64,000 nucleotides of DNA from Deltaproteobacteria bacterium HGW-Deltaproteobacteria-4 (GCA_002841765.1 PHAV01000004.1:59075-123074), one strand, 5' to 3'; numbered from the stretch's first letter, positions 32,911 through 49,357 are shown. A program made the numbers and translations. Notes: generated by a model not told the origin, from the sequence alone.

Positions 32911-32963
32911 GACGTCCATAAAAAAGAGCAGCCTCTTATCGGGGCTGCTCTTTTTATGGACGT
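32911..32963. terminator. Bidirectional intrinsic terminator shared by ahpC (+) and the DUF11 operon (-)
   Basis: GACGTCCATAAAAAAGAGCAGCC-N8-GGCTGCTCTTTTTATGGACGTC, an extended palindrome with A/T runs on both sides. Confidence 0.85.
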
Positions 32964-32971
32964 CTTTCTGA

Positions 32972-35809
32972 CTACTTAATCCTGACTCTGAATTTGACGT
33001 TAAAGGCCGGGTGATTCGTGCCATCTGATCCGTTGAAGGTTCCGCTTAAGGGAATCTTGATATCGGTAACAGACGGGTCGCACTGGTTACTGTCCGGCGC
33101 GGTATTGCTCTTGAGGTAGATATCTGCACCGTTATTTCCGGAGAAGGCAAGGTTGTCCGTTGTGCTGGCCAGACTGGTAAAGGTGTAACTGAGGCCGCTC
33201 GGAATGGGACCATCGGTAAAGAGGACCGGTCCGGAACCGGCCCCATTGATATCACCGACAAAAAGTTCGGTGTTGGCCGGAATCGGGTCGGTAATGACGG
33301 TGCTGTTGTTGTCAACGGCTCCGGGGCCGGTATTGCTGACCGAAATAGTGTATGTCATAAAAGCGCCGGGAATCGCTTTGGGCAAGCTTGTACCGTTGAT
33401 CGGGTCGGAAAAGGTCTGCGCTGATTTAATCACCAGGAGACTCGGTAACGGACTGATCACGGAGGCGCTTTTTATGCCGTAATCGCTGACCGTCCCTTCC
33501 GTCCCCTCGAAAGCATGAACCAGTGCGGTCCAGTTGCCAGAAGTGTTGAGCGTATAGGGGCCATATTCGAAGGTTTTAGTTGCCGGGGTGGTCAGGGCGC
33601 TGAGTTCTGTCATCGGTCTGGCTGTGACCGCGACCGTGCCGTCAGGTTTGGTGAGCGTGAGGGTTGGTAGTGTAGTCGGCTGACTGGCGTTGATGTCATA
33701 ACTGCCGAAGGGATCGCTGATTGTGCTGCGGATGTAGACAATTTTCCCTGGAGCGGCAGAGGTGACAACGCTCCCGGCCGGGTAGGCAGCGTCGTAGTAG
33801 GTAATGGAGTCGACATTGATGACGGTGCTGGCCGGGAGTTCGACCCGCGATCTCCCCCAGGTGGGGTTGGTGATGTAAACGCGCATACTATCAGTCACTG
33901 CGGCGGCAGTGTTGGTGACAGTTAACTCCCACCGGTTGCCTGCGGCACAGGTGACTGGTGTTGTCCAGGGTGGTGTCGGCGTTGACAAATCGAATCGTAC
34001 CATATCCTGATTGATGGTTAAATTGATCGTCTTGGTGTTGGTAAGGGTCGTCCCTCCCGAGGAACATTGCAGATCAACCTTGACGGTGCGGTTGCCGGGG
34101 TTGCTGTTGTACCGCAGGAGCAGATAGACCGGAACTGTGCTGTTGACCTTCGGATCGATAGTGATAGCCGCGGCGGCACCCGGATCCATCGTCCAGCGCT
34201 GCAAACCAGAGAGGGCGATTGTTGCATAGGATGTTGAGCTGTTGGGGGTGCGTGAGAGTTTATGCGCCGGTGTTGAAGTGCTATCGTACAGATAGAGCAG
34301 CTTGTTGCCGCTCCCTGTGACCGTCGCCGCCTGAACGGTGAGTGTCGGCGCTGCTGGTGTCCCCCCGAGGCCGCCGGGATTAGTGACGGTGGCGCTGTTG
34401 GCGATCGGTGTCCCTGCCGGGGTGGCGGCGGCAACGGTGACTTCGAAGACGATGGTTACGCTCCCTGACGCCGGCACAGTAATGCCGGTGAGATTAAGGT
34501 AGCCGGTGCCATTGGTCCCGCCGCCGGTTGTCGAGCTATTGCCGGCTCCGGCGGGGATACTTATAACCGTAAAGTTGTTGACATTGGCGGGGATATTGTC
34601 AGTAACAGAGACGCCGGTGGCAGTGTACCCCGAGTTCTCCTTGAGAGTGATGGTATAGCGCAGGACATCGCCGGGTTGAAGATCATCACCGTTCTTGTCA
34701 AGGACCCCCTTGGTCGAAGTCGAGAGGTCGGGAAAGTTTGCACCGATAATAGTATTGGTGTCACTGGCGCTGGTGCTTTTGTCGGTGACGGAGACAGAGG
34801 CGGTATTGGTGACGGTTCTCGTTCCTGAAGGGGCGGGACTGGCGGCCAGGGTCGCGTTAATGGCGAAAGTCACGCTGCTGTTAACCGGCATGGCAGGAAT
34901 GGTGATTCCGGCCCCCTGCATCGCGGCCACGGTCGTGGCCGGACAGGTCGTCCCGATCGCGCTGCATGAGACGGTGCTGACGGTGAGGTTAGGGGCAACC
35001 GGGTCGGTGAAGACGACATTGCTCAGAGCTGCACCGGTGGTGTTGGTAATTACGACTGTGTAGGTGGTGGCGGCGCCAGGGCTAAGCGCCGTCTTACCGT
35101 CGCTTTTACTGATGGAGGGGAGGACTACGACGTTGATCGAACCGTATTCGACATTAGTGGCGAGCAAGGTGTTCGGCGAGTTGCATTTAGAAGTCGTCCC
35201 GGGGAGGGCATCGGCAATCGAAGTGCAATTGGCTCTTTTTTGATGATCCCAGCTGACGACAAAGGGAATAAAGAGTTTGCCATTACTCAGGTCGACGGCT
35301 TGGCAAAGGACCGGGACATCGTAGAGTCGCACGATGCCCGAGCCTGTGCCGCCGTTAATAGTAGGATTGCCGTCGCCGCAGGTATCGGTGCTGCCGTACT
35401 GTTCGATATCGGTAAAGGGGCTAATAGTTGGCAGGATGCCGACAGTGCAGCTATCAGCGCCGCCACTGGCAGGGAGGAGCTTCGGCGTCTTGCCGTCCCG
35501 GGAAAGGAAGATGCCGACATCATAACGATCAGGCTGGGCAAAATTAACCGTAATATCGAGGTTGGCGGTGAAGGAGCTACCACCGACACAAGCGGTGGGG
35601 GTTCCCGGCGCAACAGAGATGCCGGTAATAGACACATCAGCGGCCGTGCACCCCAGATTTGAGTTGTAGCGCGCCGCCACACATTCGTTGTCGCCGTAGG
35701 CCATTACTGCCGACGCCAAGGTAAGTATGAAGGCACATGTTAAAGCGACAGCGATCAGTGCAGAGCGCAAGAGTTGTCGCCGGTGTAGACCATTATTTGC
35801 AAAGATCAT
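32972..35809 (-). CDS. Secreted 945-aa DUF11-repeat protein (protein J), paralog of the 1389-aa protein but lacking the lectin-like head
   Basis: Signal peptide with an RR motif (NNGLHRRQLLRSALIAVALTCAFILTLASAVMA). DUF11-type repeats (e.g. LQPGDVLRYTITLKENSGYTATGVSVTDNIPANV). The C-terminal ~230 aa are near-identical to protein E and end in FNVKFRVRIK. Confidence 0.85.
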   Translation of the reverse strand: MIFANNGLHRRQLLRSALIAVALTCAFILTLASAVMAYGDNECVAARYNSNLGCTAADVSITGISVAPGTPTACVGGSSFTANLDITVNFAQPDRYDVGIFLSRDGKTPKLLPASGGADSCTVGILPTISPFTDIEQYGSTDTCGDGNPTINGGTGSGIVRLYDVPVLCQAVDLSNGKLFIPFVVSWDHQKRANCTSIADALPGTTSKCNSPNTLLATNVEYGSINVVVLPSISKSDGKTALSPGAATTYTVVITNTTGAALSNVVFTDPVAPNLTVSTVSCSAIGTTCPATTVAAMQGAGITIPAMPVNSSVTFAINATLAASPAPSGTRTVTNTASVSVTDKSTSASDTNTIIGANFPDLSTSTKGVLDKNGDDLQPGDVLRYTITLKENSGYTATGVSVTDNIPANVNNFTVISIPAGAGNSSTTGGGTNGTGYLNLTGITVPASGSVTIVFEVTVAAATPAGTPIANSATVTNPGGLGGTPAAPTLTVQAATVTGSGNKLLYLYDSTSTPAHKLSRTPNSSTSYATIALSGLQRWTMDPGAAAAITIDPKVNSTVPVYLLLRYNSNPGNRTVKVDLQCSSGGTTLTNTKTINLTINQDMVRFDLSTPTPPWTTPVTCAAGNRWELTVTNTAAAVTDSMRVYITNPTWGRSRVELPASTVINVDSITYYDAAYPAGSVVTSAAPGKIVYIRSTISDPFGSYDINASQPTTLPTLTLTKPDGTVAVTARPMTELSALTTPATKTFEYGPYTLNTSGNWTALVHAFEGTEGTVSDYGIKSASVISPLPSLLVIKSAQTFSDPINGTSLPKAIPGAFMTYTISVSNTGPGAVDNNSTVITDPIPANTELFVGDINGAGSGPVLFTDGPIPSGLSYTFTSLASTTDNLAFSGNNGADIYLKSNTAPDSNQCDPSVTDIKIPLSGTFNGSDGTNHPAFNVKFRVRIK

Positions 35810-35907
35810 GATTTTCCAGACAATTGGTCAGGACAATAATTCATCGAGTATAAGATGGTGGCTGATGATAAGCCGCTGTCGTTGCACCGGCATAAGGAAT
35901 GTAACTT

Positions 35908-38900
35908 TTAAAACTGTTGCAGTGCCTCACGCACTGAATTCTGGTCGAACTTGAAGCGGAACTTGACGAACGGTCCCTGGGCGGTGAAGTCAGCGGCAGA
36001 GAAGTCGCGGTCGGTAAAGCCGATAAAGTTATAGCCGACACTGAACCAGGCATTCTTGACCAGATTGTAACCGATGGAGGCGCCACTACCGTATTTTAAT
36101 TGTTTCGCCTGCCAGGAATGAAGCACCTTACCGGTGACGCCGACATCCCATTTACTTGTGAGATCATAGCGCCCTTCCAATCCCGTCAGGTCGGTGTAGC
36201 CGCTGTAGTCGTGTTCATCGATCGTTTCATTAACGTACTTGGCGCCGTATTGCAGCGAAAGCTGCGTCTTGCGATTATGACTCTTCCAGTTAGCGTTGAT
36301 ATTGTTGATCAGCCGCCAGTTGTCATAATTAAAGTCGCCGCCCTGCTGCTTGTCGAAGAGATAATCGAGACGGTTCAGCACAATCCAGGCAGTCTCTTGC
36401 GGCCGATAAGCGAGACTGAAACGGAGATCGCCGTTGGTCTCCTTGGCACCGGCAATACCGTTGGTTTTAAAAATCTGAGCGGCAGCCCCTAAACCAAGAC
36501 CGTCCTGAACTTCGCCGTAGATGCCGGTAAAGAGACCGAACTTGTCTTCCTCATCCGAGGTCCGCATCTCCAGACGACCGGTCCAGGACCAGTTTTCTTC
36601 CTTATACGAAGCCCCGCCAGTGATGGCCGTATAGTCCGAGGTGCCGGCAGCGGCCGGGACATTGACGTTAAAAGGTGCAGTCCCTGATTTTCTGATGGTG
36701 TCGCTCCGGTCGAGTCCGGCGTCAACACTCCATTTCTTCGAGATTTGCCAGGACTGTTTGAGCCCGCTTACCGAGAAGACACGCGTACCATTCTCTGAAG
36801 ATTGCTGTTCCATGGACGAACTGACCTGTCCCCCTGCCCACGGTGAAGATCTCAGGCCGATCCGCGTCATCTGCGTCCGTTCCAGCGAACCCCGGCTCAA
36901 TTCGTGGGCAATAAAGAAGCTCACGCTTTCGCTTAACCTGTAATCAGCACCGATCAAAGTTCGCGTCGGAAAGTCGGCGTTGTCATTGCTGTTGTGCAGC
37001 GATTGGTCATGTTCCGCTCGCAGGGTCAATTTGTCGCCAAAGAGGCTATAGGTGCCGCCGCTGATAAATTGGTCTGAAGTATTATTCTCACCATTTCCCA
37101 AATTATCCTGGGCGTGTCTCAACCCTGCGCGCAGGGAATAACCCTTTTCACTGAAAGCGGTTTGAACTTCAGCCATATCCCTGACAGCGTCCGTGCCAAG
37201 ATTGTTTTGGCGGAAGGCTCCGGTCTGCAAGCTGACCTTTTCATTCCAGCGGTAAGTTCCATCCACGCCGATCTTTCTCGTACCGCTTTCACTTCCCATC
37301 TGTTGACCCAGACCGAAATCATTATCCTGTTCACGCAGATAAATCTTGCCATCGACGACCTTGGTCCGGTGCGAAATTTCTGCCAGATAAGCGATACCGC
37401 TGGCGCTGCTGCCAACGAAGTCGTTTTCGGTTGTTGCCACTTCCGCTTTGATGATCGTCTCTTCCGTGAGCTTGATGGTGGTATCGAGCCCGGAGAGATT
37501 ACCTTCGCCGCCAACACGACCTTCATGGACATGAGTGGCGCCGACTTCGACGCGCTTATCCATGAAGCGCAGTGCTCCTCGTCCGCCGTAATTGTAGGAT
37601 TTGTCGCCGGTATCTACGGATTCATAGTTAATGACGATGTAGATCGGATTAAAGTTTTCATCACGATGGTAAACAGGGCTCTTGAAGAAGAGGGTCCCCT
37701 TTTCGTAATCGATGTCGTAGTCGATATGCCGGTTCAGCTTTTGTGAAGAGATCACCACTTCACTTTTGAACCGATCGCGACTTTCGATGGTGATCGTCTC
37801 GGAGTTAATGACGAGATCTGTTCTTGACAAGCGGTAAAGACCGGAAGTGCCGTCGCCGCGCAGTTCATCCTTGACAAAGGCCTGGTTGGTGTCGCTGACA
37901 AAGAGATTGAAATCAAGATTTTCGCTCTTCATCTCCGACTTCAGACCGTTAAAATTCCGGCTGTAGCGGGAAAGTTCGGTCACCGAGAGCCCGGTATCAT
38001 AATCACCAAAGAGCGCATAGAACTGATCGCGCTCAATCTTGAGATAAAGACTGCGGGCACTGGCGGCCTCATACTGTTGTGACGAAGCGTCGCCGTAAAG
38101 GGTGTAATACTGCTGCGGGTCGATCGTGCCGTAGAGACTTCCGGCCTGACGCATTCCCGCTTTAGCGCTGTCGTAGGCTGCGGTCAGAAGCCATTTCCCC
38201 TGGATCATCCCTTTGGCAAAGAAGGCGAGTCGGCCATCTTCATAATATTCATCATCGATCTGCGAAGCTTTGATGTTCTCCAGATTTCCCGAGAGGGAGT
38301 TATATCCCGCTGTCCCTTCGGCAAAACCGACAATGATCCATTCCCGTTCACCCGGAGTCAGCCAGGCGCGCACTTCGCTTTCTCCCTTAACGAAATTGAA
38401 GCGCAGGGTCGCCTCGCCGGTCTGGGTGGTCGGTTGCAATTCAATGCGGGCGATACCGTCTTCGTCGACCAGATACTTCAGGCGTGCACTCTTGGCAAGC
38501 AGCAGCGGGTTCTCTTTGAGGTCTTTTTCCAGTTGCAAAGGGAGGTAAGGGGGGTCGAGTTGATACTCACCGACCAGTCCTGCACGGGCAGGGTGGCCGT
38601 CTTTGTCGGTCAAACGGACAGCGATCACCGAAGGGAATTTGCCATCTGCGGTCAGCCGCGATTGACCCGGCATCACTTCAGCTTTAACCGGAGAGGTCGA
38701 ATAGTGCAGAGTGCGGGCAACACGGCGCACTTCCTGGCCATCGACAGAGCTTTCAACCGCTTCAAAGAGGTTGTCACCGTCGCTCAGGTGAATGCCGATC
38801 CAGAGGCTAATTGCGACCTGGTTGTCACCCCGCTTTTTGGTGCCGTCAAGATAAAGGGGATCGACCTCTTTACCGTTGAGCAACAGTTTGAGTCTCTTCT

Positions 38901-41682: not shown

Positions 41683-41934
41683 GCAGAGATGACGGCAAAG
41701 TTCAGCGCGTTTCGCGAACACTTCACTGCAGGAAGGACTCGCGGTACGGTCTGAAAGAAGCCCCGCAGCGAAGGAAGAACGACGGCTTTGCATCGCCACT
41801 CTTCCCCCGATGCGGGTCATGATGAAGTGTGCAGCACAAAGGCGCAACACGGCGCTGCCGCCGGGAATGATCCCGGCGGTGAAGCGTCGTATTACTGCCT
41901 TTATGCTGCTCAGAGTCGACAAACTGTTTCCTGA

Positions 41935-43179
41935 TTACTGAATAATAACGTTGAAAGTTAATGTGAAGACTTCACCAGGCTTCAATTCCCCGACCGTGTA
42001 ACTGGCTTCGGCGGGGAGCAAGGTTGCAAGGGTGGCCGTGATTGCCTGCCCCGAAAGCTCAACACCATCGGCATCGCTGGTCGTTGTGTAGTACTTAGCA
42101 ACATTTCCGCCAGCAAGGCCGCTACCGGCATTGCCGATTCGACTCCCGGTCACTGATGCCTTGAAACCAGATCCTGCTGCAGATTCAGCTGCAGGCGTTG
42201 CCGGCGTGCTGAAATCAGTCAACAAATCAGCATCCATGAGCAAGCTGGCAATCAGGGTGTCACCGATGCTGGTGAGGGTCGCGGAGGAGGGAGCTCCCGC
42301 GTCATTGGTAATCGTCACAACATATTGCACAATGGCACCGGGGATCGCTTTCGGAGTGGTGGTGTAATTGATCGGATCCCAGAGCGTCGTTGCTACTTTA
42401 TTGACAGAAATATCAGCCGAGGAAACAACGAAGACGCTATAAGCCGAATCTGCCCCATCAAGATTGCCATCTTCTGGACCCGTCCCGGCAGCCGTATCAG
42501 CCAGAACAACGGGGACCGCTGCCGTACAGCCCGGACCATTATAAGTCGATGCATTGGTCGTCTCTGCACCCAGGGCAGCTGCAGTACCACCGGCAGCTGT
42601 ATTTGCATTCAGCGCATAAACCGCTTTACTGCCATTGGCCAAGGCAACAGCAATAGCCGGGGTTCCGGTGGCAACGATATAAACGGTTCTAGATGTATCT
42701 GGTGCAAGTTCGTCGATGTAAGTGGCAACATCTAATACGTCATAACCGACTGCGTCGCCCGATTCGACAACGACGACGACGCCGGAAGCGTTAAAGGTAT
42801 CGACGGAATCGTTCGCTGCCCAGACGGTGTAAGTGCCATTTGCTTTAGTGACCGGGGTAAGGATGTAATCCTGAACGGTATTACCAATATTTGTGACGGT
42901 AAATTCTAACACCGCTTGCAGGGTGCCGGTGCCGGGCACAACAGAGACCCCGGGAGCCGCGTCTGCCGTTATGACCGTGAGATTGACCTTACTCGCGACC
43001 TCAAAAGGTGTAGCAGTGCCATTTTCTACAGGTTGAGTCACTCCTCCGACAGCGTAGGTAAGGGATGCCGTGTTCGTGATGTCTGTACAGACCGGTGTGC
43101 CTGCGGCCAATGCCGATAGCGGCGTCATTGCCGCGAAAGCGGCAGCCAAAAGAAATGCTGATAAACGGGTTCTTTTCAT
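41935..43179 (-). CDS. Secreted 415-aa DUF11-type pilin-sized protein (protein H)
   Basis: AGGAGAG lies before ATG 43179. Signal peptide MKRTRLSAFLLAAAFAAMTPLSALA|AGTP. The mature N-terminus TDITNTASLTYAVGG is shared with protein F. Terminal module WDPINYTTTPKAIPGAIVQYVVTITN. Ends FTLTFNVIIQ. Confidence 0.85.
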   Translation of the reverse strand: MKRTRLSAFLLAAAFAAMTPLSALAAGTPVCTDITNTASLTYAVGGVTQPVENGTATPFEVASKVNLTVITADAAPGVSVVPGTGTLQAVLEFTVTNIGNTVQDYILTPVTKANGTYTVWAANDSVDTFNASGVVVVVESGDAVGYDVLDVATYIDELAPDTSRTVYIVATGTPAIAVALANGSKAVYALNANTAAGGTAAALGAETTNASTYNGPGCTAAVPVVLADTAAGTGPEDGNLDGADSAYSVFVVSSADISVNKVATTLWDPINYTTTPKAIPGAIVQYVVTITNDAGAPSSATLTSIGDTLIASLLMDADLLTDFSTPATPAAESAAGSGFKASVTGSRIGNAGSGLAGGNVAKYYTTTSDADGVELSGQAITATLATLLPAEASYTVGELKPGEVFTLTFNVIIQ

Positions 43180-43263
43180 GGTGCTCTCCTTTTTTGCTGG
43201 TTGTAGTTGTTCTTGCGGGACAATTCCCAGGTGTAAAAGCCAACCCCCTATTTCCAATGTTCG

Positions 43264-43758
43264 TTATTTCACTTTAGCTTTGTAAGAGACGCTGCCCTTG
43301 GCGCCGTCTTGCAGGGCTCCTTCGAATGTCCAGCGGATGTGGGTGTAGTCCGCTGCGCTGGCCGGTTGCTCCTTTCCTTCGGCATCCTTGATCTTCAATT
43401 TGTCGGCCGCGGCGAAGATTTGACCCTTATCAACAGAGAAATCGATGCGCGCCCCTTTCCCCTCGGCCGTATTGTCAAGATAGAGCATATGCTCCGGCAG
43501 CGGATTGTTGATGACCACATTCGTTGCCGGTTTATCTCCCTGGTACTCATAGTGCGTAGTAAAGATGATCGTATCGCCGGGGGTAACATTGGTATCTGCG
43601 GCGGAGACACGAACGGTCTCCTGCTCCCCTTTATCATTCTTGACGATGATATCGATCTCGGCGGTTGACTTGAGTTCGATCCCTTTTTTCTCGGCGGCAC
43701 TGGCGGGGAGGGCGACCAGCACGAGAAGGGATAAAATGGCTAGCAATTTTTTTGTCAT
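43264..43758 (-). CDS. Secreted single-domain DUF11 protein, 164 aa (protein G)
   Basis: Signal peptide MTKKLLAILSLLVLVALPASA|AEKK. One DUF11 repeat (VTPGDTIIFTTHYEYQGDKPATNVVINNPLPEHMLY). Ends SVSYKAKVK. Confidence 0.85.
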   Translation of the reverse strand: MTKKLLAILSLLVLVALPASAAEKKGIELKSTAEIDIIVKNDKGEQETVRVSAADTNVTPGDTIIFTTHYEYQGDKPATNVVINNPLPEHMLYLDNTAEGKGARIDFSVDKGQIFAAADKLKIKDAEGKEQPASAADYTHIRWTFEGALQDGAKGSVSYKAKVK

Positions 43759-43808
43759 AAGTGACTCCTATCTGTCTGGTTCTCTTGAAAAATTTTACGT
43801 TTATCGCT

Positions 43809-44822
43809 TTAGTTGATCGTCACATCGAAGGTGATAGTCTGCTCCGGGGAAGCATTGGTCAGATCGCCGAGACCGACGGTGACCGTCACTGGCGCGCCAG
43901 CGACACTGCCGACATCAAGATCAGCGCCATCGCTTAGCGGTGCGCCGTTTAATTTAAGGGAGCTAACGACATAGGTGGAGTTATCAGGTATTTCGTCGGT
44001 GATCACCACGTCTGCGGCAGTACCGACACCGGTGATGGAGGCTTTGATGCTGTAGGTAAGGATGGCGCCGGGGATTGCCTTCGGAGTGACGAAGAGATTA
44101 GTCGGGTCCCAGGTAATTACCACCGATTTGTTCAAAACCAGAGAAAGGAGGTTGACGGTATAGGTCCCTTCTGACGAGTGTTTTCCGTCACGAGTAGTAT
44201 CACCGGCGGCACTGCCGGCATTATCGGCAAAGATGACATCAACGCCGGCGGTATTAGGGCCGACAGTTGCAGTTGTCACAGTCGTGGTGCCGGCATCGAC
44301 TGTCGTAGCAACAAGTTGATAATCTGATATGTCCCCACTGACCGCCCCTGCCGGGGTGTCGGCAATGATCAAGATTGCAAGGCTGTCATCCGCATCAACG
44401 TCACCAAAGGTGGCAGCGTTGACATAGAGAGTGTCACCGGCATCCAGAACGCCGGGAGTGGTGCCGTTGTCGAGGAAGATGCGGACATTATCCATGACAA
44501 TGCCGGCGCTGTTGGTTGCGTCCAGGGCATAGCGCTGCGTGGTATTGCCTTCGTTCTTGACTGAAAAGACAAGGGCTTGATCGGTTGATCCGGGTAAAAC
44601 AGTGGCGTCACCATTTTTAGTCACCGTCAGGTTGACCTTGTTGTCGACAACGATATTCGGAGCCGATGCGGTCTTGGTCACCGGAGTAGCGCCATCGTTA
44701 TAGGTGGCGGTTGCCGTGTTAGAGATATCCGTCCCCGACGGGGTTCCGGCTGCATAGGCCGCTTGAGTGAGCGGATAGCAGAGCGCCAGGAGCAGAGCGA
44801 TGGTGGCAATCTTTTTTGTCAT
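43809..44822 (-). CDS. Secreted 338-aa DUF11-type pilin-sized protein (protein F)
   Basis: AGGGAGG lies before ATG 44822. Signal peptide MTKKIATIALLLALCYPLTQAAYA|AGTP. TDISNTATATYNDG. Terminal module WDPTNLFVTPKAIPGAILTYSIKA. Ends QTITFDVTIN. Confidence 0.85.
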   Translation of the reverse strand: MTKKIATIALLLALCYPLTQAAYAAGTPSGTDISNTATATYNDGATPVTKTASAPNIVVDNKVNLTVTKNGDATVLPGSTDQALVFSVKNEGNTTQRYALDATNSAGIVMDNVRIFLDNGTTPGVLDAGDTLYVNAATFGDVDADDSLAILIIADTPAGAVSGDISDYQLVATTVDAGTTTVTTATVGPNTAGVDVIFADNAGSAAGDTTRDGKHSSEGTYTVNLLSLVLNKSVVITWDPTNLFVTPKAIPGAILTYSIKASITGVGTAADVVITDEIPDNSTYVVSSLKLNGAPLSDGADLDVGSVAGAPVTVTVGLGDLTNASPEQTITFDVTIN

Positions 44823-44907
44823 GGTGTACCTCCCTTTCTTTTCTTGTGTTGAACCGGGTTTGAAAAGTTGTGAGCGAATAAAAAATCCATATCTTGTTCC
44901 TTTCTGA

Positions 44908-47900
44908 TTATTTGATCCTGACTCTGAATTTGACGTTGAATGAGGGGTGATTGGTTCCATTTGAACCATTAAAGATGCCGATTAAGGGGATTTTTATATT
45001 GGTAACTGTCGAGTCGCAGCCGTTAATGTCCGGTGCTGTATTGCTTTTGTCGTAATTCGTGCCGCCATTGCCGGAAAAGGCGAGATTGTCAGTGGTGCTG
45101 GCCAGACTGGTAAAGGTGTAGCTGAGGCCGCTCGCAGTCGTGCCATTGTTAAAGAGGACAGGACCGATCGATGGCCCGGCACCGTCGAAGTCGTCGACAA
45201 AGAGTTCGGTGTCGGCCGGAATCGAATCGGTAATGACGGTGGTGTTGCTGTCAACTGCGCCGGCGCCAAAGTTGGTGACCTGGATGGTGTAGTCGACAAA
45301 AGCGCCGGGAATTGCTTTGGCTCCTGCTCCTTCACCATTAACCGGGTCGGAGAAGACCTGTGATGATTTGACCACCAGCAGGTTCGGCATCGGCACGATG
45401 ACGCTCAAGGCTTGCAGTGCGTAATCACTGACCGTCCCCTCGGTCCCCTCATTGGCAACGACGCGGGCGGTCCAATTTCCGGCCGGGCCGCCGGCCGGGA
45501 TGGTGTAGGGGCCGTACTGGTAGATCTTGGTGGCGGCGTTTGAATCGTAGGCTACGCTCATGGCGACCGGAGCAGGCGAACCAATCCGGGTAACACCGGA
45601 GGGGTCAGTCAAAGTCAGGGTGGCGCCGGTGATATCGTAACTGCCGAAGGGGTCACTGACCGTGGCGCGGATATAGACCGTGCTTCCGACAGTCAGCGAG
45701 GTAACGCTGCTGCCGCCAGGGTAGAGGGCAGTATGGAAGGTGATGTCGCTGTTATTGATGTTGATGACGTTTTTCGAGTTGATAGTGACCATCGACGAGT
45801 TTCCGGTCGACGGCGCTGGGTAGACGTTGATGTTGCGTCCAGTTCCGGTGCCTCCCTGGGTGTTGGTGATGTCCATGATCAGGGCGTTGCCGCTGGCACA
45901 GGTGTAATCAGTTGACGATACAGGAGTGAGGGTAAAGTCGTAGCGGACGGCGCCTCCGACGACTAAGTCGGCGCTTAGTGAGGTTGTGGCGACGCTCGTT
46001 CCGCCGCACGTCAGCGTAATCGGGATGGTATAGGTACGGTTGCTGTTGGTCGAGAGCCAGAGGGTCACCGGAATATTGCCGTTGCTGATCGTCACATCCG
46101 ACTGCAGGGCCGGGTTGAGCGTCCAACTCTGGGTAATGCTGCCGCGGGGGATCGCGACAATAGAGCCGGCTGCGGTCGGCATCGGTGTGCGCGAGAGTTT
46201 ATAGCTGGGGGTTGAGCTGTTGTTATAGAAGTAGAGGGGTTTGTTCCCGGAACCCGGTAGCGAGCCGCTATTGACGATCAGTGCTGGCGCATCGGGATTG
46301 GCGCCGATGCCGCCGGGGACGGTGACCGTGGCACTGTTGTCGATGACCGTCCCCGTCGCGGTGCCGAGGGGGATGGTGACATCGTAAATGAGCGTGACGC
46401 TGCCGCTGGCCGGGACGGTGATGTTGGTGATATACAGGTAGCCGGTACCATTACCGCCGGTACCGAAGGGGGTCGAGAGGTTGGTGGCGCCGCCCGGCAG
46501 GGGGAGAATGACACTAAAACCGCTAGTGTTGTTGGGGATGGTGTCGGTCACCGACACGTTGCTGGCGCCAACTCCGGCAGTTTCAGTCAGGGTGATAGTG
46601 TAGCGGATGACATCACCGGCCAGGGGGTCGCCGCCGCTGGTGCGGTTAATCCAGTTTTTCGTTGAGGTCGAGAGGTTAGGAATAGCGACAGTTGTGGTGT
46701 CGCTGACGTCACGGGTCTGGCTCGCCAGGCCGGTGGTATATGTGGCGCGGGTAACGACAGTGTCAATCGTTCCGTTCGTGGCGCTGCCCGGAATCGTCTC
46801 ACGCACCAGGATGCAGATATTTTCGTTGGCTTCGAGATTGACCGCCGCAGTGATATCCGATTCGCCGGCATCGAAGCTGCCGTTGCAGTTGTTGTCGCGC
46901 ACATAGGTAATCGCCGGCCAACCCCCCTGGGTACGGCTGTTTGTGGTAAACGTGACATTGCCGCGGGCTGTGGCGGTGAAGATATGCGCGTAGTAGACCG
47001 GTGTTGATGAGTTGCCGACTGCGCTTAAAGGGGTCGGTGTGAAGTTGATAGTGATCGGCGGCGGTATATCGCCGAAAATGAGATTGAAGTAGTCGGTATA
47101 GAGGGTATAGGCAAACTGCTGATATTCACCGGCAATGGTGTAAGTACTGCCGGTCGTGCCGGAGTTATAGCTGACCGAGGTGTAGCCGGCGAGATTGTTT
47201 TCATAGATACGCAGGGTGGCGCTGGCGGTGTTGGTGAAGAGGGCGAAGTTGCCGCCGGCATCGGTGGTGACGGTATCGTAGGTGGTGGTTCCGGTGCTAT
47301 TGCGCAGCGTCAACGTCACCCCGGCGATGCCGGTCTCGGCGGCATTGAGAATACCGTCATAAGCGGTGGTGATACTGCCGTTGAAGCCGTCATCCTTGAT
47401 CACTTTGCCGCTGATGCGACTGCCGTTGTAAAGGAAGAAGTTCCGGTTGGTCAGATTGGCGCCGCTGGCGACAACTCCGCTCAGGGTATAGTTGATGGGG
47501 GTGACATAGATCCAGTTGGCGCTCGGAAAGCTCGGGTCGTAGACATTGACGGTGTTGGTGGAGCTGAGAATGACGACATAATCACCGTAGCTCGGGACTC
47601 CGGAAAAAGTGTAAGTGCCGAGAGTAGTGCTGACCTGCACAGGGGCGACGACAGTGGTACTCAGGTCGCTGGCGCGAAAAAGTTTGGCATAATAGGTCTG
47701 GCCAGTGACCTGGGATTCGCCGCCGTCGCGCACGCCGTTGTGGGCGATGCCGCCGCTAAAACCGTTGTCATTGTACACCGTGCCGCTGATGCTGATCGTG
47801 CCGCTGCTGACGGTGGTGCTGACACTGGCGCTGTTGTCGGCCGGCAGATAGTCAATGATGCCGGCCGGCGGCGTCAGGGTGGCGGTGTTGACCAGGACCG

Positions 47901-49077
47901 TGCCCTGTGGGGTAGCGGCGGCGACCGTGCCGGTGATGGTATAGGTGGCAGCGCCGTTAAAGGGGAGGGTGGCCGTGGTGTTAATGTTGTTGCCGCTCCC
48001 TGCAGCGGCGCCGCAGGTTCCGCCACCGGAGCCGGCGCAGGTCCAGGTAACACCGGTTAACGCTGCCGGGACAGTATCGACGATCGGTACGTTGTTGGCG
48101 ACGGTCACCAGGTTGGGGCCGTAGTTGCGGGCGGTGACGGTATAGGTCAATGCGCCGCCGGGAGCGACGGTCGGGGCAGAAGCGGTTTTCGCGATAGCGA
48201 GATTGATGTTTATCGGTAGGTTGTCGATGGCGAGATTGCGGATTTCGTGATAGTTGGTCGAACCGCCGGTACTGGCGGCATAGCCGACCTTGACCGTGCT
48301 CGGGATCGGCCGCATGGTGTAAAGGGTGTCGACCAGATAGGTCAGGGGCTGGTTGTAGCCAAATTGCATAAAGACATCGACACGCATGTATTCCGGTGCG
48401 GCGACCGGCGTCAGGTAGATGACGACCTTGCGATACTGGCTGCTGAGTTGGCCGGGGCGAAAGGCCTGATTGTACCAGAGGGTGCCGATGTTGGCAGCCG
48501 TGCCGCCAATGTAGTAATAGGCGCCGAGGGAGTGGTCGTAGGGGCCGCGCACTGCCACTGAATTTTGCCGCTGGCCCGGACCACCCAGCCGACCTTCGGT
48601 CGGATTGGAAAAATTGCCGTACTCGTCGATACCGACACCGATATAGCCGCCACTGAGACCGGGGGAAACAGGCGCGACGGTCTTTTTATCGTAGCCAAGG
48701 GAGCCGCCCGAGGCGCCGACCTGAAAGGTTGTAGCGTTATAGGCGCCGTCAAAGAGATAAATACTGTAACCGTCGGCACCGTTGCCGCCCCAGGTGGCGT
48801 AGTCGAACTGGATGACGACTCCCTGTGAAATGTCGAAGGAGCTGTCATACATGGCAAAGCCGGATTGGTTGCCGGTCGGTTCGGTCAGACGCAGCCAGCC
48901 GTTGCCGGGGGCGTCGACACCTGTGCTGGCGGTGAGGTAGGCTGCACCGCCAATGACCCAGCCGGGGGCGGTGGCACCGGTCATTGGCTGGTCGAGGAGG
49001 GCAGCCTGACCCGGCAAAGCCAGGCCGATGGCCAGGATCAGGATTGCGATAATAATTAATGGGTTTCGATTTTTCAT
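44908..49077 (-). CDS. Secreted 1389-aa adhesin-like protein (protein E): L-type-lectin-like head + DUF11 + two SdrD-B-like modules + shared C-terminal region
   Basis: Signal peptide MKNRNPLIIIAILILAIGLALPGQA|A. Lectin-like motifs (GWLRLTEPTGNQSGFAMYD..., GADGYSIYLFDG, GGYIGVGIDEYGNFSNP). DUF11 (VAPGGALTYTVTARNYGPN). SdrD-B-like (ISGTVYNDNGFSGGIAHNGVRDGGE...GTYTFSGVPSYGDYVV; ISGKVIKDDGFNG...GNFALF). Ends FNVKFRVRIK. Confidence 0.85.
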   Translation of the reverse strand: MKNRNPLIIIAILILAIGLALPGQAALLDQPMTGATAPGWVIGGAAYLTASTGVDAPGNGWLRLTEPTGNQSGFAMYDSSFDISQGVVIQFDYATWGGNGADGYSIYLFDGAYNATTFQVGASGGSLGYDKKTVAPVSPGLSGGYIGVGIDEYGNFSNPTEGRLGGPGQRQNSVAVRGPYDHSLGAYYYIGGTAANIGTLWYNQAFRPGQLSSQYRKVVIYLTPVAAPEYMRVDVFMQFGYNQPLTYLVDTLYTMRPIPSTVKVGYAASTGGSTNYHEIRNLAIDNLPININLAIAKTASAPTVAPGGALTYTVTARNYGPNLVTVANNVPIVDTVPAALTGVTWTCAGSGGGTCGAAAGSGNNINTTATLPFNGAATYTITGTVAAATPQGTVLVNTATLTPPAGIIDYLPADNSASVSTTVSSGTISISGTVYNDNGFSGGIAHNGVRDGGESQVTGQTYYAKLFRASDLSTTVVAPVQVSTTLGTYTFSGVPSYGDYVVILSSTNTVNVYDPSFPSANWIYVTPINYTLSGVVASGANLTNRNFFLYNGSRISGKVIKDDGFNGSITTAYDGILNAAETGIAGVTLTLRNSTGTTTYDTVTTDAGGNFALFTNTASATLRIYENNLAGYTSVSYNSGTTGSTYTIAGEYQQFAYTLYTDYFNLIFGDIPPPITINFTPTPLSAVGNSSTPVYYAHIFTATARGNVTFTTNSRTQGGWPAITYVRDNNCNGSFDAGESDITAAVNLEANENICILVRETIPGSATNGTIDTVVTRATYTTGLASQTRDVSDTTTVAIPNLSTSTKNWINRTSGGDPLAGDVIRYTITLTETAGVGASNVSVTDTIPNNTSGFSVILPLPGGATNLSTPFGTGGNGTGYLYITNITVPASGSVTLIYDVTIPLGTATGTVIDNSATVTVPGGIGANPDAPALIVNSGSLPGSGNKPLYFYNNSSTPSYKLSRTPMPTAAGSIVAIPRGSITQSWTLNPALQSDVTISNGNIPVTLWLSTNSNRTYTIPITLTCGGTSVATTSLSADLVVGGAVRYDFTLTPVSSTDYTCASGNALIMDITNTQGGTGTGRNINVYPAPSTGNSSMVTINSKNVININNSDITFHTALYPGGSSVTSLTVGSTVYIRATVSDPFGSYDITGATLTLTDPSGVTRIGSPAPVAMSVAYDSNAATKIYQYGPYTIPAGGPAGNWTARVVANEGTEGTVSDYALQALSVIVPMPNLLVVKSSQVFSDPVNGEGAGAKAIPGAFVDYTIQVTNFGAGAVDSNTTVITDSIPADTELFVDDFDGAGPSIGPVLFNNGTTASGLSYTFTSLASTTDNLAFSGNGGTNYDKSNTAPDINGCDSTVTNIKIPLIGIFNGSNGTNHPSFNVKFRVRIK

Positions 49078-49170: not shown

Positions 49171-49208
49171 CAATAAAAAACGCTCATTTTCATCCCCGAA
49201 AATGAGCG
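49171..49208 (-). terminator. Intrinsic terminator in the 5' leader of the DUF11 operon (riboswitch expression platform)
   Basis: Minus strand reads CGCUCAUUUU-CGGGGAUG-AAAAUGAGCG followed by UUUUUUAUUGUUUUUU. It lies ~95 nt upstream of ATG 49077 and ~35 nt downstream of the aptamer. Confidence 0.8.
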
Positions 49209-49244
49209 CCTGAATAACTGCTTTTTCTGCGCAGTTAGATCATT

Positions 49245-49340
49245 CACTTTGTCTTCGGTAGCCCGGCTGTCCGTTCATGAAACGGATCCTGAGCTTTGCG
49301 TCGCCGGATTACTCCGGTTTTGCTTTTATCGGAATAAGTG
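49245..49340 (-). promoter_or_regulatory. GEMM-I class cyclic-dinucleotide riboswitch aptamer (c-di-GMP-I family; A at the Vc2 G20-equivalent position suggests the Geobacter-type cGAMP-sensing GEMM-Ib variant)
   Basis: Minus strand reads CACUUAUUCCGAUAAAAGCAAAACCGGAGUAAUCCGGCGACGCAAAGCUCAGGAUCCGUUUCAUGAACGGACAGCCGGGCUACCGAAGACAAAGUG. It has GCAAAA, a CCGGA-GUAA(GNRA)-UCCGG hairpin, the ACGCAAAGC core, a second hairpin (UCCGUU/AACGGA), CAGCCGGGCUACC, and closing pairing CACUU/AAGUG. I aligned it by eye to the V. cholerae Vc2 aptamer. Confidence 0.75.
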
Positions 49341-49357
49341 AAACTAAGATTATTATA

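What the first reader, a model, noticed from the sequence alone, without database searches (positions are those of the whole stretch)
32972..49077. Six-gene operon of secreted DUF11-repeat proteins plus a giant OmpA/beta-barrel protein: candidate uncharacterised Gram-negative surface-fibre or adhesin assembly system
Seen in sequence: six co-directional CDSs run from 49077 down to 32972. The gaps between them are 50-98 nt, except before the giant protein, whose start is ambiguous. One promoter/leader lies upstream and one strong bidirectional terminator lies downstream. All six proteins have N-terminal signal peptides. Protein E (1389 aa) has an L-type-lectin-like head, DUF11, two SdrD-B/CnaB-like modules and a shared tail. 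Proteins F (338 aa) and H (415 aa) are pilin-sized, and both mature N-termini start at A|AGTP followed by TDI(S/T)NTA. Protein G is a 164-aa single DUF11 domain. Protein I (~1.9-2.0 kaa) has DUF11/SdrD-like modules, a mid-protein OmpA-C peptidoglycan-binding domain, and ~850 C-terminal aa of beta-barrel-like sequence ending in an aromatic residue. Protein J (945 aa) is a headless paralog of E. Proteins E, F, H and J share a terminal module with the motif DPxN-x(3-6)-(P/A)KAIPGA-x3-Y. Established knowledge: DUF11 (TIGR01451-type) and SdrD-B/CnaB folds build Gram-positive pili and MSCRAMMs and chlamydial OmcB, and OmpA-C binds peptidoglycan. I recognise no chaperone, PapC/FimD-type usher, sortase, or T1SS, T2SS, T5SS or T9SS component in or next to the operon. 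Inference: structural subunits (F, H, G), tip or alternative adhesins (E, J) and a dedicated envelope-spanning platform (I) form a self-contained assembly pathway. I cannot map it to a described pilus or secretion class.
Basis: partly seen in the sequence, partly recalled or inferred. Interest (0 to 1): 0.85.

Follow-up and report, generated by a model that had tools for sequence, protein, structure and literature searches.

The report
Riboswitch-controlled split-domain surface fibre operon
This six-gene operon, switched by a cyclic-dinucleotide riboswitch, appears to build a so far undescribed kind of bacterial surface fibre: each subunit seems to supply the strand missing from its neighbour's last domain, and a giant outer-membrane barrel protein that also binds the cell wall anchors the chain.

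Summary
Six co-directional secreted-protein genes (32972-49077, minus strand) lie between a leader and a strong terminator, and both flanks are housekeeping genes. The "leader" is a GEMM-I cyclic-dinucleotide riboswitch plus an intrinsic terminator. It carries the A20 signature of cGAMP-type switches.

The new finding is a donor/acceptor grammar.
- E, F, H and J end in a CLIPPER (DUF11) domain. It keeps the isopeptide Lys and Asp but stops before the last (G) strand.
- Mature F, H and I begin with exactly that missing strand (GTxIxNxAxxxY, carrying the Asn).
- E and J are therefore acceptor-only (tips), F and H are both (shaft), and I is donor-only (anchor).
- G is a free-standing acceptor that mostly lacks the Lys and Asp.

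A complex prediction places I's N-terminus into E's tail (score 0.72, best control 0.08).

Protein I also has an OmpA-like peptidoglycan-binding domain and a C-terminal barrel of about 32 or more strands with no family assignment.

The F-G-H-I order recurs in distant phyla, with more than 1,600 I homologues, and two other loci also carry GEMM-I riboswitches. The operon has no chaperone, usher or sortase.

All evidence is computational. I found no description of this system in the searchable literature.

The parts
49352..49379 (-). Sigma-70-like promoter (TTAACG, 16-nt spacer, TATAAT) just upstream of the riboswitch
   Evidence: 10 of 12 consensus matches. This is a consensus match only.
49254..49334 (-). 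GEMM-I (c-di-GMP-I, RF01051) riboswitch aptamer. It has A, not G, at the unpaired position just 5' of the G-C pair (Vc2 position 20), which is the GEMM-Ib/cGAMP signature.
   Evidence: 59.6 bits, cut-off 35, full model 1-87; alignment with the genome's nine other copies; PMC6456294 and PMC6140456 for the role of A20.
49178..49211 (-). Intrinsic terminator hairpin (14-bp stem plus U-run), the expression platform of the riboswitch
44908..49077 (-). E: 1389-aa secreted adhesin with a weak L-type-lectin-like head, CLIPPER/SdrD-like stalk and an acceptor tail. It has no N-terminal donor strand, so it is a candidate tip.
44911..45390 (-). E acceptor tail: a CLIPPER domain with Lys1237 and Asp1284 that ends after the F strand (no G strand)
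   Evidence: (the Lys is invariant; the Asp is conserved in at least 90% of 43 sequences)
43809..44822 (-). F: 337-aa subunit made of a donor hairpin, an Ig-like domain and an acceptor tail (Lys281, Asp325 in longest-ORF numbering)
44664..44753 (-). F N-terminal donor hairpin (mature N-terminus, motif GTDISNTATATY, Asn84)
43264..43758 (-). G: 164-aa stand-alone E/J-type acceptor domain. The catalytic Asp is replaced by Asn, and the first-strand Lys is not conserved among its homologues.
41935..43179 (-). H: 414-aa second subunit with a donor hairpin (motif CTDITNTASLTY) and an acceptor tail
35908..41922 (-). I: ~1.9-2.0 kaa anchor/platform protein. In order it has a donor hairpin, a CarboxypepD_reg/CLIPPER/SdrD-like stalk, an OmpA-like domain, Ig-like domains and a giant C-terminal beta-barrel. 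It has no acceptor tail.
41488..41637 (-). I N-terminal donor hairpin (mature from Ala96; Asn102 and Ala104 are invariant in 39 homologues)
39157..39510 (-). I OmpA-like peptidoglycan-binding domain (residues 805-922)
   Evidence: Z 14 to TagL, MotB and Pal
35953..37947 (-). I C-terminal beta-barrel region (residues ~1326-1990; about 32 confident long strands from 1427). No Pfam family matches even at E <= 5.
32972..35809 (-). J: 945-aa paralogue of E (51% identity over 626 aa) with a different N-terminus and the same acceptor tail (33442-32975). It has no donor strand, so it is an alternative tip.
32911..32964 (.). Strong bidirectional terminator hairpin flanked by an A-run and a U-run
   Evidence: -37.9 kcal/mol, z -9.6

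Best explanation
The operon encodes a self-contained surface-fibre (pilus-like adhesin) system of diderm bacteria. I propose it is assembled by donor-strand complementation of a split CLIPPER (DUF11) domain.

Shown by computation:
- E, F, H and J end in a CLIPPER domain that keeps the first-strand Lys and the catalytic Asp but lacks the last (G) strand.
- Mature F, H and I begin with a hairpin whose first strand is the CLIPPER G-strand consensus, including its isopeptide Asn.
- The bookkeeping gives the chain a polarity. E and J are acceptor-only (distal tips with variable heads). F and H are donor plus acceptor (shaft or adaptor). I is donor-only (base).
- I carries an OmpA-like peptidoglycan-binding domain and a very large C-terminal outer-membrane barrel.
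- A GEMM-I riboswitch with the cGAMP-type A20, followed by a terminator, sits in the leader.

Inferred:
- Subunits cross the inner membrane by Sec. Each incoming N-terminal hairpin completes the tail of the previously added subunit, so the fibre grows from its base.
- The Lys-Asp-Asn triad, reconstituted across two chains, may then form a spontaneous intermolecular isopeptide bond. That would be a natural SpyTag/SpyCatcher reaction.
- I's hairpin terminates the chain and fixes it to the outer membrane and the cell wall. I's barrel is the likely export conduit.
- G mostly lacks the Lys and Asp. It probably binds donor strands reversibly, as a chaperone, primer or cap.
- Transcription reads through the leader terminator when the cyclic dinucleotide is bound, as in the Geobacter cGAMP regulon. 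That would tie the fibre to a surface-attached lifestyle.

My sub-probabilities:
- Co-functional conserved cluster: 0.95.
- Trans strand complementation: 0.7.
- Covalent intermolecular bond: 0.45.
- I's barrel as export conduit: 0.4.
- G as chaperone or cap: 0.25.
For: 1. Layout and regulation. Six co-directional ORFs with signal peptides and 50-98 nt gaps lie between a riboswitch with terminator and a strong terminator. Both flanks are housekeeping genes.

2. Conservation of the cluster. The order [tail-bearing adhesin]-F-G-H-I recurs in L003, L004, L005, L006, L007, L008 and L011, and in part in L009, L010 and L018. These come from MAGs labelled Deltaproteobacteria, Nitrospirota, Thermoanaerobaculia and Proteobacteria.

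3. Donor motif. It lies directly after the signal peptide in F-, H- and I-like proteins of every locus examined. It was present in all 101 I homologues that aligned. Asn7 and Ala9 are invariant in 39 aligned I N-termini.

4. The donor is the missing strand. Complete CLIPPER domains within E, I and J end in '...GTxIxN(S/T)ATVT'. The tails stop one strand earlier, at '...TITFDVTIN*' or '...FNVKFRVRIK*'.

5. Catalytic residues in the tails. Lys and Asp are invariant in 46 F/H-type tails. In 43 E-type tails the Lys is invariant and the Asp is conserved in at least 90%. No conserved Asn lies inside the tails.

6. Bookkeeping. None of 77 full-length proteins with E-type tails has the donor motif; the background rate is 2 of 1975 windows. 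In about 147 of the 150 best library hits, the tail match ends at the protein's C-terminus. I homologues have the donor but no tail.

7. Depth of the pattern. The same grammar holds in systems whose barrel is only 26-31% identical.

8. Complex prediction of E tail plus I residues 96-145. The score was 0.72 and the best of 3 controls 0.08. That mark was reached by 58 of 80 solved complexes and 2 of 110 mismatched pairs. The counts hold only roughly here, because my own alignments were used. The runs agree in at least 91% of contacts, and partner pLDDT is at least 68. Donor residues 9-14 pair with the tail strand 85-90 that carries the Asp. Lys43 touches donor residues 8 and 9, next to Asn7.

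9. Protein I. The OmpA-like domain scores Z 14. The barrel is about 32 strands at pLDDT 70-86. Its best structural neighbours are very large barrels: SlpA, LptD, TonB-dependent receptors, and MtrB at Z 12.3 over 413 residues.

10. Protein G. It is homologous to E-type tails, but the Asp is replaced by Asn in most copies.

11. Riboswitches elsewhere. GEMM-I riboswitches also precede the homologous clusters in L004 (a tandem pair) and L009.

12. No sortase was found in a genome that is 100% complete.
Against: - There is no experimental evidence of a fibre, of surface exposure or of a covalent bond. No RNA data could be found.
- The complex score may simply reflect the model's knowledge of the intact CLIPPER fold. 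It shows that the hairpin fits the empty slot, not that the two proteins meet in the cell.
- Coordinates of the models were not available. I could not measure the Lys-Asn distance, confirm that the barrel closes, or see whether the F monomer model (pLDDT 94, pTM 0.77) places its own hairpin in its own tail.
- The donor Asn is below 90% conservation in the 46-sequence F/H alignment, and at least three F-like proteins visibly lack it. A covalent bond therefore cannot be universal.
- The topology is awkward. The OmpA-like domain should be periplasmic, yet I's N-terminal stalk would have to reach the fibre. That requires the chain to pass through the barrel lumen.
- Some I homologues lack the OmpA domain.
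- No energy source or periplasmic chaperone has been shown.
Confidence: 0.6

Rival explanations
1. Display system without polymerisation. The C-terminal tail is a docking or sorting tag. Each tagged cargo (E, J, possibly F and H) is attached singly to the N-terminal hairpin of an I anchor, and no multi-subunit shaft forms. F and H would be small cargo or adaptors.
For: The E-type tail sits at the extreme C-terminus of very diverse proteins of 169-1841 aa, like a sorting domain. The only pair tested in silico was E tail with I hairpin, and it scored well. F-F and F-H pairing was not tested.
Against: F- and H-like proteins carry both a donor and an acceptor in every locus. That combination is needed only if they link two partners. 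Two such subunits are conserved side by side.
Confidence: 0.15
2. Cis-complementation. The N-terminal hairpin of F and H folds back into the same chain's tail, giving a circularly closed domain. All six products are then monomeric fibrillar adhesins or matrix proteins. I is an unrelated co-expressed outer-membrane/peptidoglycan tether or porin.
For: The F monomer model is compact and confident, including the hairpin (pLDDT 94, pTM 0.77). Predictors often draw such 'closed' forms, and closed forms are proposed for archaeal TafA (PMC11821415). Large barrels with wall-binding domains, such as SlpA, act as tethers.
Against: I homologues carry a donor hairpin but no tail: all 101 that aligned have the donor. 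E/J-type proteins carry tails but never donors: 0 of 77. Cis pairing therefore leaves orphan halves in every locus. The hairpin joins domain 1 through only about 3 residues, at the pole I expect to lie far from the tail in a tandem Ig arrangement. That last point is my inference.
Confidence: 0.15
3. The subunits are substrates of an already known machine encoded elsewhere. One candidate is the genome's classical chaperone-usher operon on contig C23. Alternatively, I is a divergent usher or type V secretion barrel.
For: The genome has one PapD_N/Usher pair, also preceded by a GEMM-I riboswitch. The best AlphaFold-DB cluster hit of the I model carries the automatic name 'Outer membrane usher protein' (E 2.9e-38, 18% identity, TM 0.24-0.27).
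Against: No Usher, PapD, autotransporter, intimin, LptD or T9SS-tail family matches any of the six proteins. In the ten conserved clusters that I screened, my own similarity search found no further conserved partner gene, and the Pfam calls available for three of them list no chaperone or usher. F and H are not Fimbrial or SCPU family members.
Confidence: 0.05

Closest known systems
Chaperone-usher pili (type 1 and P pili: FimH/FimG/FimF/FimA, PapH, FimC, FimD)
   Same: - Ig-like subunits lack their last (G) strand, and the N-terminal extension of the next subunit supplies it.
- The tip adhesin has a lectin-type head and an acceptor but no donor.
- A donor-bearing terminator sits at the base.
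- Growth from the base is implied.
- A large outer-membrane barrel is encoded in the operon.
   Different: - The operon has no PapD-like chaperone.
- There is no Usher-family sequence.
- The subunits are CLIPPER/CnaA-like domains with an isopeptide triad, not Fimbrial-family pilins.
- Anchor, terminator, wall-binding domain and barrel are fused in one ~2000-aa protein.
Sortase-assembled Gram-positive pili (SpaA/RrgB type)
   Same: - They use CnaA/CnaB-type isopeptide domains. J matches TIGR04226.
- Covalent Lys-linked polymerisation is proposed here too.
- The basal subunit is tied to peptidoglycan.
   Different: - The genome has no sortase and there is no LPXTG motif.
- The proposed bond is Lys-Asn inside a reconstituted domain, formed autocatalytically.
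- The organism is a diderm, and attachment to the wall would be non-covalent through an OmpA-like domain.
SpyTag/SpyCatcher (engineered split CnaB2 domain) and intact CLIPPER/DUF11 domains (PDB 9IFR, PMC12617251)
   Same: The last strand, bearing one partner of a Lys-Asp/Glu-Asn/Asp triad, is separated from the rest of the domain and added back in trans. The triad order (Lys on the first strand, Asp in the middle, Asn on the last strand) matches CLIPPER.
   Different: Here the split would be natural and would be used for head-to-tail polymerisation. Bond formation is untested.
Archaeal threads (Sulfolobus acidocaldarius; PMC9715654) and Tat-fimbriae (PMC11821415)
   Same: These filaments are built by donor-strand complementation without a chaperone-usher pair. 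The threads also have inter-subunit isopeptide bonds.
   Different: Their subunit families are unrelated. They have no outer membrane, no barrel/OmpA anchor and no riboswitch control.
Very large outer-membrane barrels: Deinococcus SlpA (7zgx, 8ae1), MtrB (6r2q), LptD
   Same: They are the best structural neighbours of I's C-terminal region. SlpA also joins a wall-binding domain to a giant barrel. MtrB sheathes a protein that crosses the membrane.
   Different: - TM-scores are low (0.16-0.3) and there is no sequence similarity.
- I's barrel appears larger (about 32 or more strands).
- I's barrel is preceded by an ~800-aa stalk with a donor strand.
Geobacter GEMM-Ib (cGAMP) riboswitch regulon (PMC6456294, PMC8835794)
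   Same: It combines a GEMM-I aptamer with A at position 20 and an intrinsic terminator, placed upstream of genes for extracellular or surface proteins. In G. sulfurreducens the regulon includes a 'repeat-containing protein' (GSU1945) and two ~320-360-aa hypothetical proteins (GSU1947, GSU1948) that drop in a gacA deletion.
   Different: Ligand selectivity of this copy is untested. Homology of GSU1945/1947/1948 to E/F/H was not tested.

Membership tests
GEMM-I / c-di-GMP-I riboswitch (RF01051) | Match to the covariance model above the gathering score, over the full aptamer | tested here: met
   59.6 bits against a cut-off of 35, model positions 1-87 of 87.
GEMM-Ib (cGAMP-selective subclass) | A instead of G at Vc2 position 20 | tested here: met
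   A at the unpaired position 5' of the G-C pair, where the consensus and three other copies in this genome have G. Role of A20: PMC6456294, PMC6140456. My mapping of that column to Vc2 position 20 partly rests on memory.
GEMM-Ib (cGAMP-selective subclass) | Selective binding of 3',3'-cGAMP over c-di-GMP | not testable with these tools
   Needs in-line probing or a reporter assay. Some A20 aptamers are bispecific (PMC6140456).
CLIPPER / DUF11 (PF01345, TIGR01451) | Profile match above the curated cut-off | tested here: met
   E, G, I and J pass in Pfam. F passes TIGR01451 (32.5 bits against 24) but not Pfam. H has no hit and is linked through F.
CLIPPER / DUF11 (PF01345, TIGR01451) | Complete fold with Lys (first strand), Asp and Asn (last strand) in one chain | tested here: not met
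   This holds for the C-terminal tails of E, F, H and J: Lys and Asp are present but the chain ends before the Asn strand. Internal CLIPPER domains of E, I and J are complete.
Chaperone-usher pilus | PapD-like periplasmic chaperone encoded with the subunits | tested here: not met
   No PF00345 in the window. The genome's only copy is on contig C23.
Chaperone-usher pilus | Usher-family (PF00577) outer-membrane barrel | tested here: not met
   No Usher match in I, even at E <= 5. At the fold level the result is inconclusive: an AlphaFold-DB cluster automatically named 'usher' is the top hit at 18% identity.
Chaperone-usher pilus | Subunits with an Ig fold lacking the G strand, completed by the next subunit's N-terminal extension | tested here: met
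   By sequence logic and complex prediction only, and in a different domain family.
Sortase-assembled pilus | Pilus-specific sortase and an LPXTG sorting signal | tested here: not met
   No PF04203 in a genome that is 100% complete. The C-termini end in ...VTIN...VIIQ or ...VRIK.
Type V secretion (autotransporter / intimin-invasin) | Family barrel domain (12-16 strands), with LysM in the inverse type | tested here: not met
   No such Pfam or NCBIfam hit. The barrel region is ~680 aa with about 32 strands. The only related signal is a faint Invasin_D3 match (E 0.023).
Type V (Bacteroidota) pili and T9SS cargo | Lipoprotein pilin precursors of the FimA/Mfa family, or a Por_Secre_tail C-terminal domain | tested here: not met
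   No such family hits. The signal peptides have no conserved lipobox.
OmpA-like peptidoglycan-binding domain (PF00691) | Profile match and fold | tested here: met
   (47 bits against 27.2), (Z 14, rmsd 2.6-2.8 Å to TagL and YfiB).

The most novel reading that the evidence does not exclude
This would be a new, widespread class of diderm surface fibre. It would polymerise without chaperone, usher or sortase, using a naturally split isopeptide (CLIPPER) domain. Each subunit's N-terminal strand completes the previous subunit's C-terminal domain and locks it covalently through a spontaneous Lys-Asn bond. A single giant protein then terminates the chain. That protein would be at once the last donor, the peptidoglycan anchor and the outer-membrane export barrel. 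The whole system would be under cyclic-dinucleotide riboswitch control.
Probability: 0.4. Interest if true: 0.92.

Novelty: categorically new. Interest (0 to 1): 0.86.

Why it matters
Diderm bacteria are known to build non-flagellar fibres by only a handful of routes: chaperone-usher, type IV, curli, type V and conjugative pili. Covalent pili are regarded as a sortase-dependent speciality of Gram-positive bacteria.

If it works as proposed, this locus adds a route with non-homologous machinery. The route is common in environmental anaerobes: more than 1,600 barrel homologues and about 1,360 clusters of tail-bearing proteins.

It would also be a natural counterpart of the SpyTag/SpyCatcher reaction, with many orthogonal donor/acceptor pairs available for protein engineering.

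It gives a function to a large group of 'OmpA family' and 'TIGR01451 repeat' proteins. It also links cGAMP and c-di-GMP riboswitches in Geobacter-like organisms to a specific attachment organelle, which bears on mineral and electrode colonisation.

The mechanism can be tested directly with two purified fragments and three point mutations.

Tried and rejected
- **PDB sequence search.** For I it found only the OmpA-like domain. For F it found nothing meaningful.
- **Pfam on the barrel.** Residues 1330-2004 gave no family even at E <= 5.
- **Protein atlas.** It returned only unnamed 'outer membrane protein' clusters.
- **Fold searches with the 1200-residue I model.** Foldseek TM-scores were low because the model has several domains. 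VIA-align was dominated by the OmpA domain.
- **Model coordinates.** They are not exposed, so I could not check where the F monomer model puts its hairpin or measure the Lys-Asn distance.
- **Literature.** Searches combined DUF11, CLIPPER, TIGR01451, OmpA, Geobacter, donor strand, isopeptide and pilus. They found the CLIPPER domain paper and archaeal analogues, but no description of this system. Subscription journals are not covered.
- **RNA evidence.** No RNA holder was listed for 41900-45000, so co-transcription is untested.
- **Link to G. sulfurreducens GSU1945/1947/1948.** I tried to recognise them by genome coordinates in a class-wide profile search, and no matching genome appeared in the sample. 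Homology is left open.
- **Second OmpA/barrel protein on contig C5 (L016).** I considered it a second copy of the system and rejected that. It has no donor hairpin, and the 2850-aa protein upstream of it has no acceptor tail.
- **Regex for the donor motif.** A strict pattern undercounted the motif (74 of 114 I homologues), because one subfamily reads TVDNTA. The alignment-based count is the one to use.

Full report
**1. What is there**

The region 32972-49077 holds six minus-strand ORFs:

| Protein | Coordinates | Length |
|---|---|---|
| E | 44908-49077 | 1389 aa |
| F | 43809-44822 | 337 aa |
| G | 43264-43758 | 164 aa |
| H | 41935-43179 | 414 aa |
| I | 35908-41922 | at most 2004 aa |
| J | 32972-35809 | 945 aa |

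- The F start is Met50 of the longest ORF, which agrees with the database record P0127. The H start is Met27.
- The start of I is ambiguous. Candidates are TTG at 41922, ATG at 41820 and ATG at 41793.
- Gaps between genes are 50-98 nt.
- Each product has a Sec-type signal peptide by inspection.
- The flanks are housekeeping genes: peroxiredoxin, fructose-bisphosphatase and a GntR regulator on one side; inositol monophosphatase and a radical-SAM enzyme on the other.
- Downstream of J lies a strong bidirectional terminator at 32911-32964 (-37.9 kcal/mol, z -9.6).

**2. The leader is a riboswitch**

- Rfam finds one family in the whole window: a full-length c-di-GMP-I (GEMM-I) aptamer at 49254-49334 (-), scoring 59.6 bits against a cut-off of 35.
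- A promoter-like site precedes it at 49352-49379. A 14-bp terminator hairpin with a U-run follows at 49178-49211, about 100 nt before E's start codon.
- The unpaired position just 5' of the G-C pair is G in the consensus. It is A here.
- In Geobacter, an A at Vc2 position 20 defines the cGAMP-responsive GEMM-Ib subclass, and A20G switches selectivity. Some A20 aptamers bind both ligands (PMC6456294, PMC6140456).
- The genome has ten GEMM-I copies.
- GEMM-I riboswitches also precede the homologous clusters in two unrelated contigs: a tandem A20-type pair in L004 and a G20 copy in L009.
- Cyclic-dinucleotide control is therefore a recurrent trait of this system, though not a universal one.

**3. 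Domain content**

- Pfam/NCBIfam give DUF11/TIGR01451 in E, F, G, I and J. A 2025 study renamed this family CLIPPER and showed that a member carries an intramolecular Lys-Asp-Asn isopeptide bond (PMC12617251).
- J also matches an isopeptide-forming fimbrial domain (TIGR04226).
- E has a weak L-type-lectin head, below the curated cut-off.
- I has CarboxypepD_reg, CLIPPER, a sub-threshold SdrD_B match and a clear OmpA-like domain at 810-913.
- J is 51% identical to E over 626 aa but has a different N-terminus.

**4. Protein I**

- An AlphaFold2 model of residues 805-2004 was built from 29 sequences (mean pLDDT 68.6). It shows:
  - the OmpA-like domain, which later scored Z 14 against TagL, MotB and Pal;
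  - a disordered linker;
  - Ig-like sandwiches at about 985-1200;
  - a poorly predicted stretch at 1193-1327;
  - about 32 long antiparallel strands from 1427 to 1990 at pLDDT 70-86, plus some weaker strands before them.
- The chain ends with a short helix and a terminal Phe.
- No Pfam family matches the last 675 residues even at E <= 5. PDB sequence search finds only the OmpA part.
- Structural neighbours are all very large barrels: Deinococcus SlpA, TonB-dependent receptors, LptD, and MtrB at Z 12.3 over 413 residues. TM-scores are low.
- The top AlphaFold-DB cluster is automatically named 'usher' at 18% identity. No Usher profile matches.
- I conclude that this is a giant outer-membrane barrel of an undescribed family. 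Strand number and closure could not be verified without coordinates.

**5. Distribution and co-conservation**

- The barrel region has more than 1,691 homologues among a capped candidate set. They are 53-68% identical across MAGs labelled Desulfuromonadales, Deltaproteobacteria, Nitrospirota, Thermoanaerobaculia and Proteobacteria. Their only names are 'OmpA family protein' or 'uncharacterized repeat protein'.
- Within the window's phylum the protein is patchy: 25 of 301 genomes match. Within its class, full-length F/H-like matches occur in 13 genomes besides the window's own, out of 151 searched.
- In ten fetched neighbourhoods, the order F-like, G-like, H-like, I-like is kept in seven and partly kept in three. 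In the five loci that extend far enough upstream, a large adhesin with varied heads (beta-helix, SpaA-like and others) but the same tail comes first.
- My own similarity screen of these ten clusters showed no further conserved partner gene. The Pfam calls available for three of them list no chaperone or usher.
- The window's genome has one ordinary chaperone-usher operon on another contig and no sortase.

**6. The donor/acceptor grammar (the main new result)**

- The mature N-termini of F, H and I share a motif directly after the signal-peptide cleavage site: GTxIxNxAxxxY, followed by a second short strand. The same holds for their counterparts in every locus examined.
- The motif was present in all 101 I homologues that aligned. 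Asn and Ala are invariant in 39 aligned I N-termini.
- Complete CLIPPER domains inside E, I and J end with exactly this sequence ('GTVIDNSATVT' and similar). There it is the last strand and carries the isopeptide Asn.
- The C-terminal modules of E, F, H and J keep two CLIPPER features:
  - the first-strand Lys (phi-x-phi-x-K-S/T);
  - the catalytic Asp (I-T-D-x-I-P).
- Both residues are invariant in 46 F/H-type tails. In 43 E-type tails the Lys is invariant and the Asp is conserved in at least 90%.
- The polypeptide stops right after the penultimate strand. No conserved Asn lies within the tail.
- A scan of 1.84 billion cluster representatives with E's tail found 1,363 hits. In about 147 of the best 150, the match ends at the protein's last residue, on proteins of 169-1841 aa.
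- None of 77 full-length proteins among these has the donor motif. The background rate is 2 of 1975 windows.
- The resulting bookkeeping:

| Protein | Donor hairpin | Acceptor tail |
|---|---|---|
| E, J | no | yes |
| F, H | yes | yes |
| I | yes | no |
| G | no | yes (see below) |

- The same bookkeeping holds in three systems whose barrels are only 26-31% identical.
- G is homologous to the E-type tail and also ends after the penultimate strand. In most genomes its Asp is replaced by Asn and the Lys is not conserved.

**7. Test of the grammar**

- I folded E's tail (195 aa, 43-row alignment) with I's first 50 mature residues (39-row alignment).
- The score was 0.72 (runs 0.68-0.73), and the best of 3 controls was 0.08. 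That mark was reached by 58 of 80 solved complexes and 2 of 110 mismatched pairs. These counts hold only roughly, because my own alignments were used.
- The runs share at least 91% of contacts, and the partner's pLDDT is at least 68.
- Donor residues 9-14 pair antiparallel with tail residues 85-90, the strand that carries the Asp. The invariant Lys43 touches donor residues 8 and 9, next to Asn7. The hairpin's second strand contacts the first tail strand.
- This is the geometry expected if the hairpin fills the empty G-strand slot. It may partly reflect the model's knowledge of intact CLIPPER domains. It supports fit, not binding in vivo.
- The F monomer model is very confident (pLDDT 94.3). 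It consists of the hairpin and two Ig-like domains that resemble the CNA, RspB, Cnm and antigen I/II adhesin domains (Z 7-8).
- I could not see where the hairpin sits in that monomer model.

**8. Most likely mechanism**

Shown by computation: the operon structure, the riboswitch, co-conservation, the split-domain grammar, the predicted fit, the OmpA-like domain and the giant barrel.

Inferred:
- After Sec export, a tip protein (E or J) is the first unit. The hairpin of F or H completes its tail. Further F or H units add at the base in the same way.
- I's hairpin ends the chain and ties it to the outer membrane (barrel) and to peptidoglycan (OmpA-like domain).
- The Lys-Asp-Asn triad is then complete across two chains, so a spontaneous intermolecular isopeptide bond is plausible. 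It cannot be universal, because a few F-like donors lack the Asn.
- The barrel is the obvious candidate for the export pore. That requires I's own stalk to run through its lumen, since the OmpA-like domain should be periplasmic.
- G probably binds donor strands reversibly, as a chaperone, primer or cap.
- Expression would rise when the cyclic dinucleotide prevents termination in the leader, as in the Geobacter cGAMP regulon. There, a 'repeat-containing protein' and two ~320-360-aa hypothetical proteins fall about 4- to 22-fold in a gacA deletion (PMC6456294, supplement). Their homology to this locus is untested.

**9. Rivals**

- **Display without polymerisation.** The tail would be a docking tag, and single cargo proteins would attach to I.
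- **Cis-complementation.** The adhesins would be monomeric, and I would be an unrelated tether.
- **Assembly by a known machine encoded elsewhere.**

The first rival is hard to exclude without data. However, it does not explain why F and H always carry both halves. The second leaves orphan donors (I) and orphan acceptors (E, J, G) in every locus. The third lacks any family match or linkage.

**10. Comparison and novelty**

- Functionally, the system works like a chaperone-usher pilus: a missing G strand, an N-terminal donor, a lectin-headed tip without a donor, and a terminator at the base. It also resembles a sortase pilus in its isopeptide-domain subunits and basal link to the wall.
- It fails the defining tests of both. 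It has no PapD-like chaperone, no Usher family, no sortase and no LPXTG motif.
- The nearest mechanistic parallels are the engineered SpyTag/SpyCatcher pair and the archaeal threads, which combine donor-strand complementation with inter-subunit isopeptide bonds (PMC9715654).
- I found no description of this gene cluster or of a split CLIPPER domain in the searchable literature. Subscription-only papers are not covered.
- I therefore rate it as a new kind of fibre-assembly system. The caveat is that every step beyond sequence and structure prediction remains to be shown.

Noticed in passing
window 51436-54463 (-): Just upstream of the operon's neighbours lie two more envelope genes. One is an 809-aa protein with TPR/YfiO-like repeats and two DUF11/CLIPPER domains (52034-54463). 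The other is a 208-aa LysM plus TPR protein (51436-52062). They may form another wall-associated CLIPPER system.
   Followed up: partly
own genome, contig C5:57534-66427 (L016, L020, L023): A tandem pair of GEMM-I riboswitches sits directly upstream of a 2850-aa repeat protein. The first has G at position 20; the other is partly masked by N. A 1741-aa protein follows, with an N-terminal OmpA-like domain and a barrel distantly related to I's (26% identity over 356 aa). It has no donor hairpin and no acceptor tail, so it is a different architecture.
   Followed up: partly
own genome, contig C23:93141-97218 (L022): The genome's only classical chaperone-usher operon (PapD_N at 94517-94852, Usher at 95956-97218) is also preceded by a GEMM-I riboswitch with A at position 20. 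At least three surface-structure loci in this 3.0-Mb genome are thus under cyclic-dinucleotide riboswitches.
   Followed up: partly
L004:2629-2975 and L009:1735-1829: Homologous fibre clusters in unrelated metagenome or genome contigs carry GEMM-I riboswitches: a tandem A20-type pair in L004 and a single G20 copy in L009. L004 also has a sigma-54 response regulator and an SCPU (sigma-fimbria) gene just upstream.
   Followed up: partly
window 41637-41922 (-), and I homologues in L003-L018: I and many of its homologues have an unusually long N-terminal extension (about 50-90 residues in the longest ORF) before the hydrophobic core of the signal peptide. It may be an annotation artefact or an extended signal region like those of large type V secretion proteins.
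   Followed up: no
PMC6456294, supplementary file 6 (G. sulfurreducens GSU1945, GSU1947, GSU1948): These cGAMP-riboswitch-controlled genes encode a ~1048-aa 'repeat-containing protein' and two ~320-360-aa hypothetical proteins. Their sizes resemble E/J and F/H. Whether they are homologues is unknown.
   Followed up: partly
I homologues P0018, P0019, P0022, P0026, P0030, P0033 and others; L011:9410-15016: A sizeable subgroup of I homologues (about 1650-1870 aa) lacks the OmpA-like domain but keeps the donor hairpin, stalk and barrel. Binding to the cell wall is therefore dispensable in some lineages.
   Followed up: no
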